Source: Candidatus Hermodarchaeota archaeon | GTDB taxonomy: Archaea; Asgardarchaeota; Heimdallarchaeia; Hodarchaeales; Hodarchaeaceae | Reading direction: 5' to 3' | NCBI GenBank assembly: GCA_048886185.1 | Contig: JBHLKY010000064.1 | Coordinates: forward strand, 1 to 5,082 | DNA: 5,082 nucleotides | Shown: positions 390 through 5,082 of the stretch, piece by piece | Layout of the letters: the number at the start of each line of letters is the position of its first letter | Numbering within the stretch: the first letter of the stretch is position 1 | The notes under the pieces: model-generated | Seen by the model: the letters and a program-made list of their open reading frames with translations, nothing else | Told to the model about the DNA's origin: nothing | Database searches by the model: none | Made by a program: the position numbers and the translations under genes

Positions 390-1271
390 TTATGAAGGTC
401 GAATGAACTCTCCAATTCTTTTCCATAATTGTTTTATATCATATTCGTGGATCTCTTTATTCTCTGCTACAAACTCTTCAAGAATTTCTGATATTCTTAA
501 TGATTCAAAATAATTTATTCTTTGCGCGAGTGTTGCAACCATAATTTGACGTTTTCCTCCACGGGCTTCATCGTCATCAACTGTAGAAAAATATAAATAA
601 CTATCCATGTCAATATTAGCAACTCGTAGTAATACCCCTTGAGCAGCATAATAATCAATGGTACCATACATTGGTCCTACAGTCTGGAATAATTGAATAC
701 CGATAGTTTCGACTGAAATTGGTAATTTTGGTTTCTGTGGATAAACATCTTCTAGTTTTGGACCAATCTTATCATCCCAAATTACTAAGAACACAATAAT
801 TGTTTCTTCTTCTTTGATTTTTTTAGAGCTTATTTCTATCTCTTCATTTGCAAATAATTTATCTCTGATCTGTCTACTCAATAAATTATGTCTTTTTCCC
901 CGATTAATTTTCCCAGTTATACTTGCTAGAAGATCCATTTCGTTAATTGGTTTGGCAATGTAATCATCAGCTCCAAGCATCTTCCCAAAGCGAACATCTT
1001 CTGGAGAATTTTTTACAGTAAGAAAAATAAAAGGAATTAGGTTCCAATCAGGATTGTCAATCATTTTTTTGAAAAAATTATAACCATTCATTTTTGGCAT
1101 CATGATGTCGCAGAGAATTAAATCTGGTAGTTGATCATTGGATTCAAGAATCTCTAAAGCCTCAACTCCATTTTTAGCTGTTATGATCTTGTATTCATTA
1201 TTTTCTAAAATTAATTTAGTATGTTCTAGTAATGCCTCATCATCTTCCACTAGAAGGATCAAAGATTTCAT
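390..1271 (-). CDS. Response regulator: N-terminal CheY-like receiver (REC) domain fused to a C-terminal longin/uDENN-like domain (293 aa)
   Basis: REC (~nt 1271-900): LILLVEDD acidic pocket, phosphoacceptor in PDLILCDIMMP (D55), FLT (T85) and YIAKP (K107) are all intact. C-terminal domain (~nt 803-393): IVFLVIWDDKIGPKLEDVYP matches the hydrophobic strand-xD-xx-GP-xxxx-YP opening of uDENN/NPR2-type longins, and YLYFSTVDDDEARGGKRQIMVATL matches the D-xx-ARG-xx-R strand of folliculin/SMCR8-type longins. Start placed at ATG 1271 (MKSLILLVEDD, with AAAGGA ~10 nt upstream) rather than the track's GTG at 1430, because REC homology begins there and the extension overlaps the antisense vapB-like relic. 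Confidence 0.9.
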   Translation of the reverse strand: MKSLILLVEDDEALLEHTKLILENNEYKIITAKNGVEALEILESNDQLPDLILCDIMMPKMNGYNFFKKMIDNPDWNLIPFIFLTVKNSPEDVRFGKMLGADDYIAKPINEMDLLASITGKINRGKRHNLLSRQIRDKLFANEEIEISSKKIKEEETIIVFLVIWDDKIGPKLEDVYPQKPKLPISVETIGIQLFQTVGPMYGTIDYYAAQGVLLRVANIDMDSYLYFSTVDDDEARGGKRQIMVATLAQRINYFESLRISEILEEFVAENKEIHEYDIKQLWKRIGEFIRPS

Positions 1272-1359: not shown

Positions 1360-1500
1360 TATACAATTTTACGGATTTCCAGCTCATTTGGCAACTTTAA
1401 AGATTTTTGGGGCGCAGGAATAAAATCCACGAAGGATTATGAAGCAGAACTTGCAGAAATCAAGCAGAGACGGCTTAACTTTTTTCAAGGACGACAGTGA
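1360..1500 (+). pseudogene. Remnant of a VapB-like antitoxin gene (5' end lost)
   Basis: Start-less frame YTILRISSSFGNFKDFWGAGIKSTKDYEAELAEIKQRRLNFFQGRQ* ends at TGA 1498-1500, 1 nt before the vapC-like ATG at 1502. It resembles the C-terminal half of archaeal VapB antitoxins (ILRL...l.dF.G...e.e.l.eik..R pattern). In-frame stops TGA/TAA at 1354-1359 precede it and there is no in-frame ATG/GTG/TTG. Not in the ORF track. Confidence 0.5.
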
Positions 1501-1501
1501 C

Positions 1502-1696
1502 ATGAAGTTTCTAGATACTTCTTTCCTAATCGATCTCATTCGAAAAAATACATCTCTAAAAGAGCTTTTGAATGAAATCGATAAAGATAGGGCACATGTG
1601 ACAAATACTATTGTTGCTCATGAATTTTTGATTGATGGCTGTGATCCAGAATTAGCAGAAAGTATAATCAATTTCGTCCAAGACACAAGATACTGA
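1502..1696 (+). pseudogene. vapC: Truncated VapC/PIN-domain toxin (64 aa, N-terminal half only)
   Basis: MKFLDTSFLIDLIR is the canonical PIN/VapC N-terminus (conserved Asp in FLDTS), and TNTIVAHEFL carries the second conserved acidic residue. It stops after 64 aa, about half a PIN domain (~130 aa), so the distal catalytic Asp residues are missing. The real start is ATG 1502; the track's start at 1439 adds non-PIN sequence that overlaps the vapB-like frame. Confidence 0.7.
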
Positions 1697-1859: not shown

Positions 1860-2150
1860 TTAATTCTGACTCTGAATCTCTATCAAAAGCTGATTAAGAT
1901 GCTCTAAATCCGCAACAATTATATCCAATGTAGTTAATCGTGCCATAATCCCATAAAACTCAACTCTTCGAGGATCGTTGTTGGCTTTCAGTTTAATCTC
2001 CCAAAGATTGCGTTTCGCTTTATATTTACCTATTAAATCGAATAATTTTTCTAGAATTATTTGGATTTTATCTTTAAGTTGCTCTGGAATTTCAGATTCG
2101 AGAATACGAAAGGATGGATGTTCATCTTTTACATCATTAACTTTAAACAT
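1860..2150 (-). CDS. Hypothetical protein (96 aa), probably all-helical
   Basis: Intact ATG-to-TAA ORF with charged amphipathic helices (EQLKDKIQIILEKLFDLIGKYK; LDIIVADLEHLNQLLIEIQ). An AT-rich TTTAAA element lies ~20-26 nt upstream. No family motif recognised. Confidence 0.7.
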   Translation of the reverse strand: MFKVNDVKDEHPSFRILESEIPEQLKDKIQIILEKLFDLIGKYKAKRNLWEIKLKANNDPRRVEFYGIMARLTTLDIIVADLEHLNQLLIEIQSQN

Positions 2151-2630: not shown

Positions 2631-3122
2631 ATGCCTGGTTATTCTACTCATTTTTTTGTTGGATTCTTGATTGCAATCCCTTTCTTCCATTGGGATGAAA
2701 AAGATCGGTTAAAAACACTAGTATTAGGGGCTTTTGCAGGGATTATTCCTGATATTGACGGGATTTGGGCTGTAATTACTGTTGAGACAGGAAATCCAAC
2801 ACTGGACTATCTGTTCTCACATCGTGGATTTTGGCATAATCCAATTCTTCCACTTTTATTTGCAATTATTTCAGGTGTATACCTCGCAATTATATTCTTA
2901 CCTCAGCGAAAAATGGCAAAAGATCATTTTTGGTCACTGTCACCTATCGCTCTTGCATGGTTCTCTCATTTAATCCTCGATTTCGGATTTACTACTACAA
3001 ACAATATTCCCGCGTTAATCTTTGAATTACCACTTCTTGCTGTTTATGCGCTAGATCAAATATCAGCATTCGCTATTTCAGCTCTTTTTGGATATATCCT
3101 CTGGAAACGAGCTGGTTGGTGA
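2631..3122 (+). CDS. Metal-dependent membrane-bound hydrolase (YdjM / LexA-binding inner-membrane putative hydrolase family), 163 aa
   Basis: The family motif series is all present: N-terminal TH (YSTHFFVG), G-xx-PDID (AGIIPDIDG), HRGxxH (SHRGFWHN) and SHLxLD (WFSHLILDF), separated by hydrophobic transmembrane segments. Confidence 0.9.
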   Translation: MPGYSTHFFVGFLIAIPFFHWDEKDRLKTLVLGAFAGIIPDIDGIWAVITVETGNPTLDYLFSHRGFWHNPILPLLFAIISGVYLAIIFLPQRKMAKDHFWSLSPIALAWFSHLILDFGFTTTNNIPALIFELPLLAVYALDQISAFAISALFGYILWKRAGW

Positions 3123-3345: not shown

Positions 3346-4260
3346 TCATATAACCAGTAGAATAGCCCCAAATACCATGAGTACCATGCCAAGTAGTCGT
3401 TCTTTGATTTCCTCTTTTAAAAATAGCTTAGCTAGGCTGGCGGTTACAAAAACTGATAATAATGACGCAGGTTCTGCAACTGTTACTTCTAATCCTGCTA
3501 TAGCAATTAAAAGCATTACATATGCCCATCCATTAGATATACCGGCAAAAATGACTGTTTTAAGGTTGTTTTTCAACGCAAGTATGCCATCATTATACCT
3601 TCTGGTATAGATTGCTAGTGTTAAGAATATTAATCCAGCAAAAAAAAGGATTGAGAAAGCATAAACTCTTGAATCTATCGTTCTTATAGCATAAGTATCA
3701 ACTGTTCTCCCAAGTGCTAAAAAGAATGAACCACCAATCATCAATAACGATGCCTTTGATGTTTTTAAATTTTGGACTTTTTCAGTGATCTTTCCAGGAT
3801 ATAAGAAGAAAACCCCAATGAACATAATAATCCCTCCTAATGCTCGAAATACTCCCACATCCTCACCTAGAAAAATTAGACCTAGCACTAATAGCCATAA
3901 TAGTGATGAATTATATAGAGGAGCAATTAGTGAAGCATCCTCTTCTGATAAGGCTTTCACATAGGCAAAAAAACCAAATGTGTAAACAATTGAACTGATA
4001 AATGCGAACGTTAAATCCTCTAATCCAGTAAGAAATGTTTCTTTTGGAATAAACACAAAAATTGGTAATAAGAATAGTGCTCCTGTTAAAAAGAAGATAG
4101 CACTGATTATCAACGAATCATATTCTTCAAGTTGCTTTAAAAAAATTCTTTCAGCACCTAACAAAAAAATTCGAAAAGATAGGGCAATATATGAGATTAT
4201 TACAACATCCAAGTCAAAAACTTCCCTAAAATCATCAATAAACTCATAAAGATTTGACAT
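3346..4260 (-). CDS. EamA/DMT (drug/metabolite transporter) family permease, 304 aa
   Basis: About ten hydrophobic segments in two repeats. Each repeat ends in an EamA-type signature (KALSEEDASLIAPLYNSSLLWLLVLGLIFLGE; IAGLEVTVAEPASLLSVFVTASLAKLFLKE) followed by a G-xx-(I/M)-xx-G terminal helix. Confidence 0.92.
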   Translation of the reverse strand: MSNLYEFIDDFREVFDLDVVIISYIALSFRIFLLGAERIFLKQLEEYDSLIISAIFFLTGALFLLPIFVFIPKETFLTGLEDLTFAFISSIVYTFGFFAYVKALSEEDASLIAPLYNSSLLWLLVLGLIFLGEDVGVFRALGGIIMFIGVFFLYPGKITEKVQNLKTSKASLLMIGGSFFLALGRTVDTYAIRTIDSRVYAFSILFFAGLIFLTLAIYTRRYNDGILALKNNLKTVIFAGISNGWAYVMLLIAIAGLEVTVAEPASLLSVFVTASLAKLFLKEEIKERLLGMVLMVFGAILLVI

Positions 4261-4464: not shown

Positions 4465-5082
4465 TCAATTTTCGACTGAACTCTTCTTTAATAGAAGATA
4501 TGGCATTAATGACGTGAATAACTTGTTTTCTGCTTTTCGTAAGGTTTTTTCAACAGCATATCTAGAAACCTTAAATTCGCCTGCTAAATCTTGAGTTCTG
4601 ATTCTTCGTGGAATTTCATAGTAGCCATTTTCAAACGCTCTAATTAGAATTAATAACTGATGTACTGTCAAATTGCTAGTTATTTCTGCTATAGATATCA
4701 TTTGAGAAGGAAATATTCCTTCAGATTCTAATTCTTTTATTGATATAATCTTCGTGTTGGGATATGTCTGTAATACTTGCACTACTGAGGATAAAATGGA
4801 GTTATCTAAGCAAACGATCTGATAATGACTCCATCCTCCCGAATATCTTATCGGATAAATCGATATCCCTCCTTGCTGTTGAATCTGTGAATTAATTGTT
4901 TTATCACAAAGACATTTCATGCTAATATAAGAAATCGTTGTCGGATTACTATCAATCGTCGTAATTTTCCAATCATGAGTATTTGGATAAAGATCGTTGG
5001 CTATTTCCAAATTTTTCCCATTAATTTCACCTGGAATCATTAATATATCAAATTTTGAATTGCAATAACCATAAATCTCTTT
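4465..5082 (-). CDS. Bacterio-opsin activator (Bat)-like HTH_10 transcriptional regulator, probably 5'-partial
   Basis: C-terminal LTVHQLLILIRAFENGYYEIPRRIRTQDLAGEFKVSRYAVEKTLRKAENKL matches the HTH_10 consensus (LT.rQ..al..A...GYy..PR......lA..lgis......LRrAe.kl). The N-terminal part has the PIRYxGGWxxY pattern typical of this archaeal family. The frame stays open upstream of the track's ATG 5040 to the window edge (KEIYGYCNSKFDIL-MIP), so the true start is probably outside the window. Confidence 0.9.
   Translation of the reverse strand, partial: KEIYGYCNSKFDILMIPGEINGKNLEIANDLYPNTHDWKITTIDSNPTTISYISMKCLCDKTINSQIQQQGGISIYPIRYSGGWSHYQIVCLDNSILSSVVQVLQTYPNTKIISIKELESEGIFPSQMISIAEITSNLTVHQLLILIRAFENGYYEIPRRIRTQDLAGEFKVSRYAVEKTLRKAENKLFTSLMPYLLLKKSSVEN

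What the first reader, a model, noticed from the sequence alone, without database searches (positions are those of the whole stretch)
549..572. DEARGGKR motif aligns with the GAP arginine finger of folliculin/SMCR8
Seen in sequence: YFSTVDDDEARGGKRQIMVATL, with Arg237 of the 293-aa protein at codon 563-561. Established knowledge (from memory; verify by alignment): folliculin reads KDSLARGFQRWYSI and SMCR8 reads YDLEARGFVRPFCM, and the Arg of ARG (FLCN R164, SMCR8 R147) is the catalytic arginine finger of these longin-domain GAPs. The pattern D-x-x-A-R-G-x-x-R followed by a hydrophobic strand is reproduced here with the same spacing. Inference: the output domain may be a catalytically equipped GAP, making this protein a candidate phosphorylation-gated GAP and a prokaryotic relative of the FLCN/SMCR8/NPRL2 GAP module.
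Basis: partly seen in the sequence, partly recalled or inferred. Interest (0 to 1): 0.8.

Follow-up and report, generated by a model that had tools for sequence, protein, structure and literature searches.

The report
Receiver-fused GAP-type longin, Asgard archaeon
An Asgard archaeon encodes a two-component response regulator whose output is a longin domain carrying the same arginine loop and GP motif as the eukaryotic GTPase-activating proteins folliculin, SMCR8 and NPRL2. It is therefore a good but untested candidate for a phosphorylation-controlled regulator of a small GTPase, a protein type already sketched in the literature.

Summary
Window 549-572 (-) encodes DEARGGKR, and R237 (561-563) belongs to a 293-aa protein made of a receiver (REC) domain, a long helix and a C-terminal domain.

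AlphaFold gives the C-terminal domain a confident longin fold with R237 in the beta4-beta5 loop. Published work places the SMCR8 R147 / FLCN R164 finger in that loop.

A 99-sequence family profile aligns with human SMCR8 over the whole domain:
- R237 falls on R147, and G170-P171 on the G68-P69 "GP motif".
- The score is 26.4, against 11.9 +/- 2.1 for shuffled SMCR8.

Fold searches rank FLCN, C9orf72, Lst4 and GATOR1 chains among the best matches. R237 is present in 19 of 20 close homologues and 75 of 99 family members.

The window gene is an orphan on a 5-kb contig. Its 40-50% identical relatives mostly lie in operons of small Arf/Rag-like GTPase, histidine kinase and REC-longin. All 17 GTPase-linked copies keep the Arg.

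GAP activity, the substrate and phospho-gating are untested.

The idea is partly published: Asgard NPRL2-like longin fusions to two-component domains (Liu et al. 2020), and Asgard longins with a GP motif and Arg finger (Traffic 2025). I class it as a new member of a known kind with a useful testable operon. The scan had already noted the REC-longin fusion on this window.

The parts
390..1271 (-). Gene for the 293-aa REC-longin response regulator (stop codon at 390-392).
   Evidence: ORF and translation. The start at MKSLILLVEDD is shared by the homologues.
918..1259 (-). Receiver (REC) domain, residues 5-118, with D10, D11, D55 (codon 1107-1109), T85 and K107.
   Evidence: Pfam PF00072 at E 1.1e-25. 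The acceptor and switch residues are conserved in 25 of 25 family members examined.
801..917 (-). Linker, residues 119-157. REC helix alpha5 continues as one long helix to about residue 144, followed by a low-confidence stretch.
   Evidence: AF2 full-length model: helix 111-144, pLDDT below 50 for 139-155.
393..800 (-). Longin domain, residues 158-293, with topology beta-beta-alpha-beta-beta-beta-alpha-alpha.
   Evidence: AF2 domain model: pLDDT 88, pTM 0.82. Fold matches to FLCN, C9orf72, Lst4, SMCR8 and an Asgard longin.
738..779 (-). W165-D166-x3-G170-P171-x6-P178 motif, running from the end of beta1 into beta2. It corresponds to the 'GP motif' of GAP longins and the WD of C9orf72.
   Evidence: Family conservation: W 96, G 95, P171 92 and P178 91 of 99. 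It aligns with SMCR8 G68-P69/P76 and NPRL2 G20-P21/P28. Motifs verified in PDB sequences.
549..575 (-). D233-D-E-A-R237-G-G-K-R241, the beta4-beta5 loop with the candidate arginine finger (R237 = 561-563).
   Evidence: It aligns residue for residue with SMCR8 D143-L-E-A-R147-G-F-V-R151.

Best explanation
The gene encodes a response regulator of an Asgard archaeon; homologue names suggest Hodarchaeales/Heimdallarchaeia. Its output module is a stand-alone longin domain of the FLCN/SMCR8/NPRL2/C9orf72 'GAP longin' type.

Shown:
- The REC domain has all phospho-acceptor residues.
- The fold is longin.
- A W-D-x3-G-P motif sits at beta1/beta2.
- A conserved Arg (R237) sits in the beta4-beta5 loop and aligns with SMCR8 R147 (= FLCN R164).

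Inferred:
- Two longin domains pair into the usual longin-dimer platform and bind an Arf/Rag-like small GTPase.
- R237 of one protomer enters the nucleotide pocket as an arginine finger, while W165/D166 of the other holds the GTPase, as C9orf72 W33/D34 does.
- Phosphorylation of D55 by a histidine kinase controls this, most simply by REC-driven dimerisation through the long linker helix.

In this genome the gene stands alone, so its kinase and GTPase are unknown.
For: Domain identity:
- REC: PF00072 at E 1e-25. D10, D55, T/S85 and K107 are kept in all 25 relatives examined.
- Longin fold: AF2 pLDDT 88, pTM 0.82, topology bbabbbaa, with R237 between b4 (222-232) and b5 (240-249).

Fold searches:
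- VIA-align gives FLCN 6nzd_H Z 11.4 (133 aligned residues, rmsd 2.8), C9orf72 7o2w_A Z 11.0, Lst4 Z 11.7, SMCR8 6lt0_B Z 9.4 and the Lokiarchaeota longin 8yqg Z 12.9.
- The Foldseek top hits are GATOR1/SEAC chains.
- Atlas gives SMCR8 TM 0.72, C9orf72 0.71 and a Heimdall cluster carrying PF11704 0.75.

Sequence alignment:
- Family profile against human SMCR8: 133 columns, P 8.4e-4, score 26.4, versus 11.9 +/- 2.1 and a maximum of 20.95 in 150 shuffles.
- In that alignment R237=R147, D233=D143, G238=G148, R241=R151 and G170-P171=G68-P69.
- NPRL2 aligns in register at the GP motif, and R237 lands one residue from R78.

Literature:
- The finger lies in the bL4-bL5 loop of SMCR8/FLCN and of the Avl9-type GAPs.
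- The GP motif is specific to GAP longins.
- C9orf72 W33/D34 are needed for GAP activity.

Conservation: R237 is present in 19 of 20 close homologues and 75 of 99 family members; W165 96, G170 95 and P171 92 of 99.

Genomic context of relatives (40-52% identical over the full length):
- At least 12 colinear GTPase-HK-REC-longin operons, plus 5 more loci with an adjacent GTPase.
- One locus with two kinases, two REC proteins and five Arf/Rag-type GTPases.
- All 17 GTPase-linked copies keep the Arg.
- The operon GTPase has DxGGQ and an HKxD G4 motif, and matches Pfam Gtr1_RagA and Arf.
- Fusions of the same longin type to an Arf domain and to HK/REC domains keep both motifs.

Co-fold of two copies of the P0022 longin with its operon GTPase, GTP and Mg:
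- Verdict weak support: score 0.54, best control 0.00.
- The mark was reached by 58 of 80 solved complexes and 2 of 110 mismatched pairs.
- At 0.60 or under it was reached by only 7 of those 80 solved complexes and by both mismatched pairs that passed.
- The runs agree in at least 53% of contacts, and the partner pLDDT is at least 77.
- Similar complexes have been solved, so the pass may reflect likeness to them.
Against: - No GAP assay exists for any Asgard longin; none was found in the library.
- Sequence similarity to eukaryotic GAP longins is weak. There is no Pfam hit for this protein, and only 2 of 99 members touch PF11704 at E 0.04. There is no PDB sequence hit. hhalign probability is only 24%.
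- Generic, non-GAP longins score only slightly lower in the fold search: VAMP7 Z 10.0, sedlin and Sec22 Z 9.2.
- 24 of 99 family members lack the Arg.
- The window gene and its close orthologues have no kinase or GTPase next to them. The genome has 40 or more small-GTPase ORFs, none a clear orthologue of the operon GTPase.
- No residue-level 3D superposition was possible, dimerisation was not tested, and the co-fold was run on a homologue and gave only weak support.
Confidence: 0.55

Rival explanations
1. The longin domain does bind a small GTPase, but as an exchange factor, scaffold or effector, as most longin/roadblock platforms do. The conserved Arg and Asp would stabilise the beta4-beta5 hairpin or bind something other than the gamma-phosphate.
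For: Longin and roadblock dimers mainly act as GEF platforms (review text). Non-GAP longins also match the model well. The Arg is missing in 24 of 99 members. D233 and R237 co-vary, which could mean a salt bridge.
Against: The GP motif is reported only in GAP longins. The Arg aligns exactly with a proven catalytic finger. It is kept in all 17 GTPase-linked copies and lost only in copies without an adjacent GTPase. The operon GTPase has a catalytic Gln; no intrinsic arginine was looked for.
Confidence: 0.25
2. In this orphan Hodarchaeales subgroup the longin output no longer acts on a GTPase. It serves some other protein-protein or membrane role under phospho-control.
For: There is no GTPase or kinase near the gene here or in two orthologous loci, and no orthologue of the operon GTPase in the genome.
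Against: All motif residues (W165, D166, G170, P171, P178, D233; R237 and G238 in nearly all) stay conserved among orthologues at 70-88% identity, which argues for an unchanged function. Orphan response regulators with distant partners are common (general knowledge).
Confidence: 0.13
3. The resemblance of DEARGGKR to the FLCN/SMCR8 finger is chance or convergence on a generic longin scaffold, without homology to the GAP longins.
For: The motif is short, and Pfam and PDB sequence searches find nothing.
Against: The whole-domain alignment scores 6.8 sd above shuffles, with both motifs in register. The motif occurs only in longin paralogues in this genome. Fold searches put GAP longins at or near the top.
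Confidence: 0.05

Closest known systems
SMCR8 longin domain (C9orf72-SMCR8-WDR41 ARF/RAB GAP)
   Same: Longin fold. F/W-x-E/D-x-x-G-P...P at beta1/beta2 with identical G-to-P spacing. D-x-E-A-R-G-x-x-R in the beta4-beta5 loop, aligned residue for residue.
   Different: There is no DENN domain, no WDR41 and no separate C9orf72-like partner. The archaeal domain carries both the C9orf72-type WD and the SMCR8-type Arg in one chain, and it is fused to a receiver. Sequence identity is only 17%.
Folliculin / yeast Lst7 (RagC/Gtr2 GAP with FNIP/Lst4)
   Same: G-P after beta1 and D-x-x-A-R-G-x-x-R with R164. Fold match Z 11.4 over 133 residues. Lst7 likewise consists of the longin domain only.
   Different: FLCN has large insertions in its longin domain and a DENN domain, and it needs FNIP. 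No FNIP-like partner was found here.
NPRL2 (GATOR1 RagA GAP, finger R78)
   Same: F-H-P-T-L-G-P-K-I-x4-P against W-D-D-K-I-G-P-K-L-x4-P, aligned without gaps from beta1 to beta3. GATOR1 chains are the top Foldseek hits.
   Different: R237 lands one residue from R78 in the alignment. The NPRL2 C-terminal domain, NPRL3 and DEPDC5 are absent.
Asgard NPRL2-like longin domains fused to two-component domains (Liu et al., bioRxiv 10.1101/2020.10.19.343400, Fig. 5c)
   Same: The same architecture class (REC or HK plus an NPRL2-like longin) in Asgard archaea. This protein is a member.
   Different: The passages retrieved from that paper mention no arginine finger, WD/GP motifs or GTPase-kinase-regulator operon.
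Asgard 'FLCN/SMCR8-type' longins with GP motif and arginine finger (Traffic 2025, PMC12290439)
   Same: [quoted passage not shown]
   Different: That paper does not mention receiver fusions or two-component control. Whether its 15 proteins include this family could not be checked, because no supplement is held.
MglA-MglB-RomR polarity module of Myxococcus (roadblock GAP, receiver-domain partner)
   Same: A prokaryotic small GTPase regulated by a roadblock/longin-superfamily dimer, with a receiver-domain protein in the circuit (abstracts).
   Different: MglB is a roadblock domain, and MglA is predicted to carry an intrinsic Arg finger. The receiver sits on a separate protein. No homology to the GAP-longin motifs is known.

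Membership tests
CheY-like response regulator receiver | Pfam PF00072 match, and the acidic pocket (D10/D11), phospho-acceptor Asp (D55), switch Thr/Ser (T85) and Lys (K107). | tested here: met
   PF00072 at E 1.1e-25, residues 5-118. The residues are present here and in 24 of 24 relatives.
Longin domain superfamily | Fold beta-beta-alpha-beta-beta-beta-alpha-alpha, with no N-terminal helix (unlike roadblock). | tested here: met
   AF2 DSSP elements. VIA-align gives Z 9-13 to many solved longins over 111-135 residues.
GAP-type longins (FLCN / SMCR8 / NPRL2 / C9orf72) | GP motif at the loop before, or at the start of, beta2. | tested here: met
   G170-P171 sit at the start of beta2 and are 95 and 92 of 99 conserved. 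They align with SMCR8 G68-P69 and NPRL2 G20-P21. The feature is defined in PMC12290439.
GAP-type longins (FLCN / SMCR8 / NPRL2 / C9orf72) | Conserved Arg in the beta4-beta5 loop at the position of FLCN R164 / SMCR8 R147 / NPRL2 R78. | tested here: met
   R237 lies between b4 and b5. It aligns with R147 and one residue from NPRL2 R78. The loop assignment comes from Tang et al.. No 3D residue superposition was available.
GAP-type longins (FLCN / SMCR8 / NPRL2 / C9orf72) | Detectable sequence homology to a bona fide member. | tested here: inconclusive
   hhalign against SMCR8 gives P 8e-4 and z about 6.8 against shuffles, but probability is 24%. There is no Pfam PF11704 or PF06218 hit for this protein, and only 2 of 99 members hit weakly.
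GAP-type longins (FLCN / SMCR8 / NPRL2 / C9orf72) | Works as a longin-longin dimer, heterodimeric in eukaryotes. | not tested
No partner longin gene lies next to this one. The 166-aa neighbour in L007 is not related.
GAP-type longins (FLCN / SMCR8 / NPRL2 / C9orf72) | Arg-dependent stimulation of GTP hydrolysis by a small GTPase. | not testable with these tools
   Needs biochemistry.
FLCN / SMCR8 orthologues proper (longin-DENN proteins) | C-terminal DENN domain after the longin domain. | tested here: not met
   The protein ends at residue 293, right after longin helix alpha3. It is therefore a relative of the longin module only, not an orthologue of FLCN or SMCR8.
Asgard NPRL2-like longin / two-component fusions (Liu et al.) | A two-component domain (REC, HisKA/HATPase) fused to an NPRL2-like longin, in an Asgard genome. 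| tested here: met
   Architecture. Homologues are named Hodarchaeales, Heimdallarchaeota or Promethearchaeota. The profile hits 23 of 121 genomes of the phylum.

The most novel reading that the evidence does not exclude
This family may be the undivided ancestor-like form of the eukaryotic longin GAP heterodimers. Each chain carries both the 'holder' WD motif (as in C9orf72) and the arginine finger (as in SMCR8, FLCN and NPRL2). A homodimer assembled by receiver phosphorylation would then be a complete GAP. On this reading a classical histidine-kinase phosphorelay directly switches an Arf/Rag-like GTPase in the closest archaeal relatives of eukaryotes, as a prokaryotic forerunner of GATOR1/folliculin nutrient signalling.
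Probability: 0.3. Interest if true: 0.85.

Novelty: new member of a known kind. Interest (0 to 1): 0.55.

Why it matters
Whether Asgard longin proteins really regulate Asgard small GTPases, and which regulator goes with which GTPase, is open. Tran et al. note that GTPase and longin genes are rarely in operons, which makes matching hard.

This family offers matched sets of GTPase, histidine kinase and REC-longin in one operon, plus clear mutational targets (R237, W165/D166, G170/P171). The question therefore becomes a bench experiment.

If GAP activity and phospho-gating hold, the arginine-finger longin GAP mechanism of FLCN, GATOR1 and C9orf72-SMCR8 would predate eukaryotes and would first have been wired to two-component signalling.

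The concept itself has been proposed before. The gain here is sharper evidence and a testable system, not a new kind of protein.

Tried and rejected
- Sequence searches of the output domain against Pfam, PDB chains and PDB with the family profile gave nothing usable. The only 'hits' (BiP, a phytase, a prenyl synthase) were at E 0.4-2 and are noise.
- A Pfam scan of all 99 family members found PF11704 in only 2, at E 0.04.
- The protein-atlas feature search gave only sub-threshold leads (0.75-0.80), one to an archaeal cluster with PF06218 in 19% of members.
- A residue-level structural superposition on FLCN or SMCR8 could not be made. The fold-search tools return ranges only, and model coordinates are not exposed.
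- The NPRL2 global hhalign failed (P 0.62). Only local alignments are informative.
- The vertebrate-only NPRL2 and SMCR8 sets were too shallow for real profile-profile comparison.
- Search for the substrate in the same genome: 40 or more small-GTPase ORFs, best 99 bits to the operon-GTPase profile, no clear orthologue.
- The 166-aa gene downstream of a REC-longin in L007 was tested as a possible partner longin. Its hhalign score of 14.2 is background.
- The supplement of the Traffic paper, needed to see whether its Asgard longins include this family, is not held.
- Literature searches for experimental GAP activity of Asgard longins found none.
- There are no tRNAs in the window.

Full report
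**1. What is in the sequence**

The finding lies in a minus-strand gene, window 393-1271 (stop codon at 390-392), encoding 293 aa. window:549-572:- translates to DEARGGKR, and R237 is codon 563-561.

The window is a whole 5,082-bp contig (C64) of a 4.84-Mb, 75-contig assembly with about 31% G+C. The nearest homologues are named Hodarchaeales, Hodarchaeota, Heimdallarchaeota and Promethearchaeota, so the host is an Asgard archaeon.

Pfam finds a receiver domain at residues 5-118 (PF00072, E 1e-25) and nothing for residues 140-293. PDB sequence searches find nothing for the C-terminal part.

**2. The output domain is a longin domain**

I predicted the structure twice:
- The full-length protein with 20 homologues gave pLDDT 77.
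- Residues 140-293 with a 99-sequence alignment from an exhaustive HMMER search gave pLDDT 88.1 and pTM 0.82. That search found 147 clusters at E<=1e-3; I selected and aligned the sequences.

Both models show b1 159-166, b2 170-177, a1 187-202, b3 211-217, b4 222-232, b5 240-249, a2 254-270 and a3 279-290. This is the longin topology.

REC helix alpha5 continues as one long helix to about residue 144.

W165-D166 end b1, G170-P171 open b2, and R237 sits in the b4-b5 loop in a high-confidence stretch.

**3. Which longins it resembles**

- Foldseek against the PDB puts GATOR1/SEAC chains first (E 9e-5 to 8e-4). DENND10, Lst4 and the FLCN complexes follow.
- An independent all-against-all VIA-align search gives the Lokiarchaeota Roadblock-Longin longin 8yqg at Z 12.9, Lst4 at 11.7 and FLCN 6nzd_H at 11.4 (133 aligned residues, rmsd 2.8).
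- The same search gives C9orf72 7o2w_A at 11.0 and SMCR8 6lt0_B at 9.4. Non-GAP longins follow only slightly lower: VAMP7 10.0, sedlin and Sec22 9.2.
- I confirmed the identities of chains 6nzd_H, 6lt0_B and 7o2w_A by sequence.
- The ESM Atlas gives TM 0.75 to a Heimdall cluster in which 23% of members carry PF11704 (Folliculin). It also gives 0.72 to SMCR8, 0.71 to C9orf72 and 0.63 to NPRL2.

The fold evidence therefore favours the GAP-longin group but does not on its own separate it from other longins.

**4. Does R237 sit at the finger position?**

*Topology.* Tang et al. place SMCR8 R147 in the bL4-bL5 loop and equate it with FLCN R164. The Avl9 preprint places the fingers of DENN GAPs between b4 and b5 of the longin subdomain. 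R237 is in that loop.

*Motifs.* I checked the comparison sequences against PDB chains instead of trusting memory.
- FLCN: G15-P16, and D160-S-L-A-R164-G-F-Q-R168.
- SMCR8: F63-S-E-Q-V-G68-P69...P76, and D143-L-E-A-R147-G-F-V-R151.
- NPRL2: F15-H-P-T-L-G20-P21-K-I-T-Y-Q-V-P28, and R78.
- C9orf72: W33-D34-N-I-L-G38-P39.
- The archaeal protein: W165-D-D-K-I-G170-P171-K-L-E-D-V-Y-P178, and D233-D-E-A-R237-G-G-K-R241.

*Alignment.* hhalign of the 99-sequence family profile against human SMCR8 residues 45-230 aligns 133 columns across the whole domain.
- G170-P171 fall on G68-P69, and P178 on P76.
- D233 falls on D143, R237 on R147, G238 on G148 and R241 on R151.
- The score is 26.4, P is 8.4e-4 and probability is 24%.
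- 150 shuffles of the SMCR8 segment gave 11.9 +/- 2.1, with a maximum of 20.95.
- Against NPRL2 the N-terminal half aligns without gaps, with GP on GP and P178 on P28. R237 falls one residue before R78.

*Chance.* D..ARG..R occurs only twice in 8,290 ORFs of this genome. Both occurrences are in proteins of this longin family.

A true residue-by-residue 3D superposition could not be made with the tools.

**5. Conservation**

- Among 20 close homologues, W165, G170, P171 and P178 are invariant, and R237 is present in 19. The exception is a PAS-fused protein.
- Across the 99 diverse members the counts are W165 96, D166 77, G170 95, P171 92, P178 91, D233 72, R237 75 and G238 50.
- The GP motif has been reported as specific to GAP longins and absent from non-GAP longins.
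- C9orf72 W33/D34 are required for ARF1 GAP activity.
- The archaeal domain thus combines the 'holder' motif of C9orf72 and the 'finger' of SMCR8/FLCN in one chain.

**6. Genomic evidence for a link to small GTPases**

The window gene itself is an orphan. Its neighbours are a short PIN-like ORF, a YdjM-like protein, an EamA transporter and an HTH_10 regulator. Two orthologous loci likewise show no kinase or GTPase.

Relatives that are 40-52% identical over the full length tell a different story.
- One locus carries a hybrid kinase, the REC-longin, a second REC protein, a REC-PAS kinase and five Arf/Ras/Gtr1_RagA-type GTPase genes in a row.
- A Promethearchaeota contig has GTPase (184 aa), then MASE3-PAS-HisKA-HATPase kinase, then REC-longin, all on one strand with short gaps.
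- The family profile hits 23 of 121 sampled genomes of the phylum. These are concentrated in the host's own family (4 of 4) and in one other family (14 of 15).
- In 24 fetched loci I called ORFs and searched them with the GTPase, kinase, REC and longin queries.
  - 12 loci show the colinear GTPase-kinase-REC-longin operon.
  - 2 more show the same spacing, but the kinase falls below my threshold.
  - 3 have the GTPase directly adjacent.
  - Most of the rest have only a kinase.
- These genomes are close kin, so the counts are not independent.
- The operon GTPase has an Arf-like P-loop (GLDNSGKTS), DxGGQ and a Rag-like HKxD motif. It matches Pfam Gtr1_RagA and Arf.
- All 17 REC-longins with an adjacent GTPase keep the Arg. 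The three that lack it (L046, L051, L052) have a kinase but no GTPase beside them.
- The same longin type, with both motifs, is fused elsewhere to an Arf domain (P0162, apparently longin-Arf-longin), to PAS-HisKA-HATPase-REC, to PAS-HATPase and to TPR repeats.

**7. Co-fold**

I folded two copies of the P0022 longin domain with its operon GTPase, GTP and Mg.
- The verdict was weak support: score 0.54 with best control 0.00.
- The mark was reached by 58 of 80 solved complexes and 2 of 110 mismatched pairs.
- At 0.60 or under it was reached by only 7 of those 80 and by both mismatches that passed.
- The runs agree in at least 53% of contacts, and the partner pLDDT is at least 77.
- No interface was reported.
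- Similar complexes are solved, so the pass may reflect likeness.
- The test was made on a homologue, not on the window protein.

**8. Mechanism proposed**

Shown: an intact receiver, a GAP-type longin with the GP motif and an Arg at the finger position, and genomic coupling of the family to kinases and Arf/Rag-like GTPases.

Inferred: a kinase phosphorylates D55, and receiver dimerisation through the long linker helix brings two longin domains together. The resulting dimer cups the GTPase. R237 of one chain completes the active site while W165/D166 of the other chain holds the GTPase.

I put about 0.55 on the protein being a phospho-controlled GAP. I put about 0.25 on it binding a GTPase in another capacity, and the remainder on a non-GTPase role or chance resemblance.

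**9. What is already known**

- Liu et al. [quoted passage not shown] They proposed that Asgard growth control runs through two-component systems with 'eukaryotic' regulators.
[quoted passage not shown] It does not mention receivers.
- A census of archaeal response regulators did not list this output.
- I found no experimental test of any Asgard longin GAP.
- The protein is thus a new member of a described kind.
- What this analysis adds:
  - the residue-level alignment of R237 with SMCR8 R147;
  - the WD, GP and Arg motifs combined in one chain;
  - the recurrent GTPase-kinase-REC-longin operon;
  - the co-occurrence of the Arg with GTPase linkage.
- The scan had already noted the REC-longin fusion on this same window (e1-5455569) and several other longin/GTPase modules in this genome. 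It had not noted this family on other DNA.

Noticed in passing
L004:5069-8962 (and L030, L033-L036, L038-L040, L042, L043, L048): A recurrent three-gene operon in one Asgard family: an Arf/Rag-like GTPase of about 182 aa (GLDNSGKTS, DxGGQ, HKxD), a PAS histidine kinase, and a REC-longin. It supplies matched GTPase, kinase and regulator sets. I did not find it described in the papers I read.
   Followed up: partly
protein P0162 (719 aa): An Arf-family GTPase domain (149-311) is followed by this longin type, with WDEREGP and STRGG. An NPRL2-like 'FHPKSGPKISLVIP' start at residues 6-26 precedes it. The protein is possibly longin-Arf-longin in one chain.
   Followed up: partly
G000:C16:78168-80084 (-) and G000:C6:93398-94711 (-): Two further paralogues of this longin type in the same genome, 638 aa and 437 aa, with the longin at the N-terminus. 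C16 has WDDISGP...SLRGKER. C6 has FDEEHGP...DPEARGRNR. Neither is fused to a receiver.
   Followed up: partly
window 1439-1696 (+): A short ORF whose residues 24-65 weakly match only the first third of a PIN domain (PF01850, E 0.013). It may be a truncated or decayed VapC-like gene, divergent from the REC-longin gene.
   Followed up: no
window 4465-5040 (-): A regulator with a C-terminal HTH_10 domain (E 9e-16) and a sub-threshold match to HVO_A0563_N. This is a halobacterial-type transcription factor architecture in an Asgard genome.
   Followed up: no
L007:2075-2575 (+): A 166-aa protein with no Pfam hit, encoded directly after a kinase-REC-longin pair. It is not detectably related to the longin family (hhalign score 14, background). 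Its function is unknown.
   Followed up: partly
window 1860-2150 (-), 2631-3122 (+), 3346-4260 (-): A 96-aa ORF without any family match, a YdjM-like membrane protein and an EamA-family transporter. None has an evident link to the regulator.
   Followed up: no
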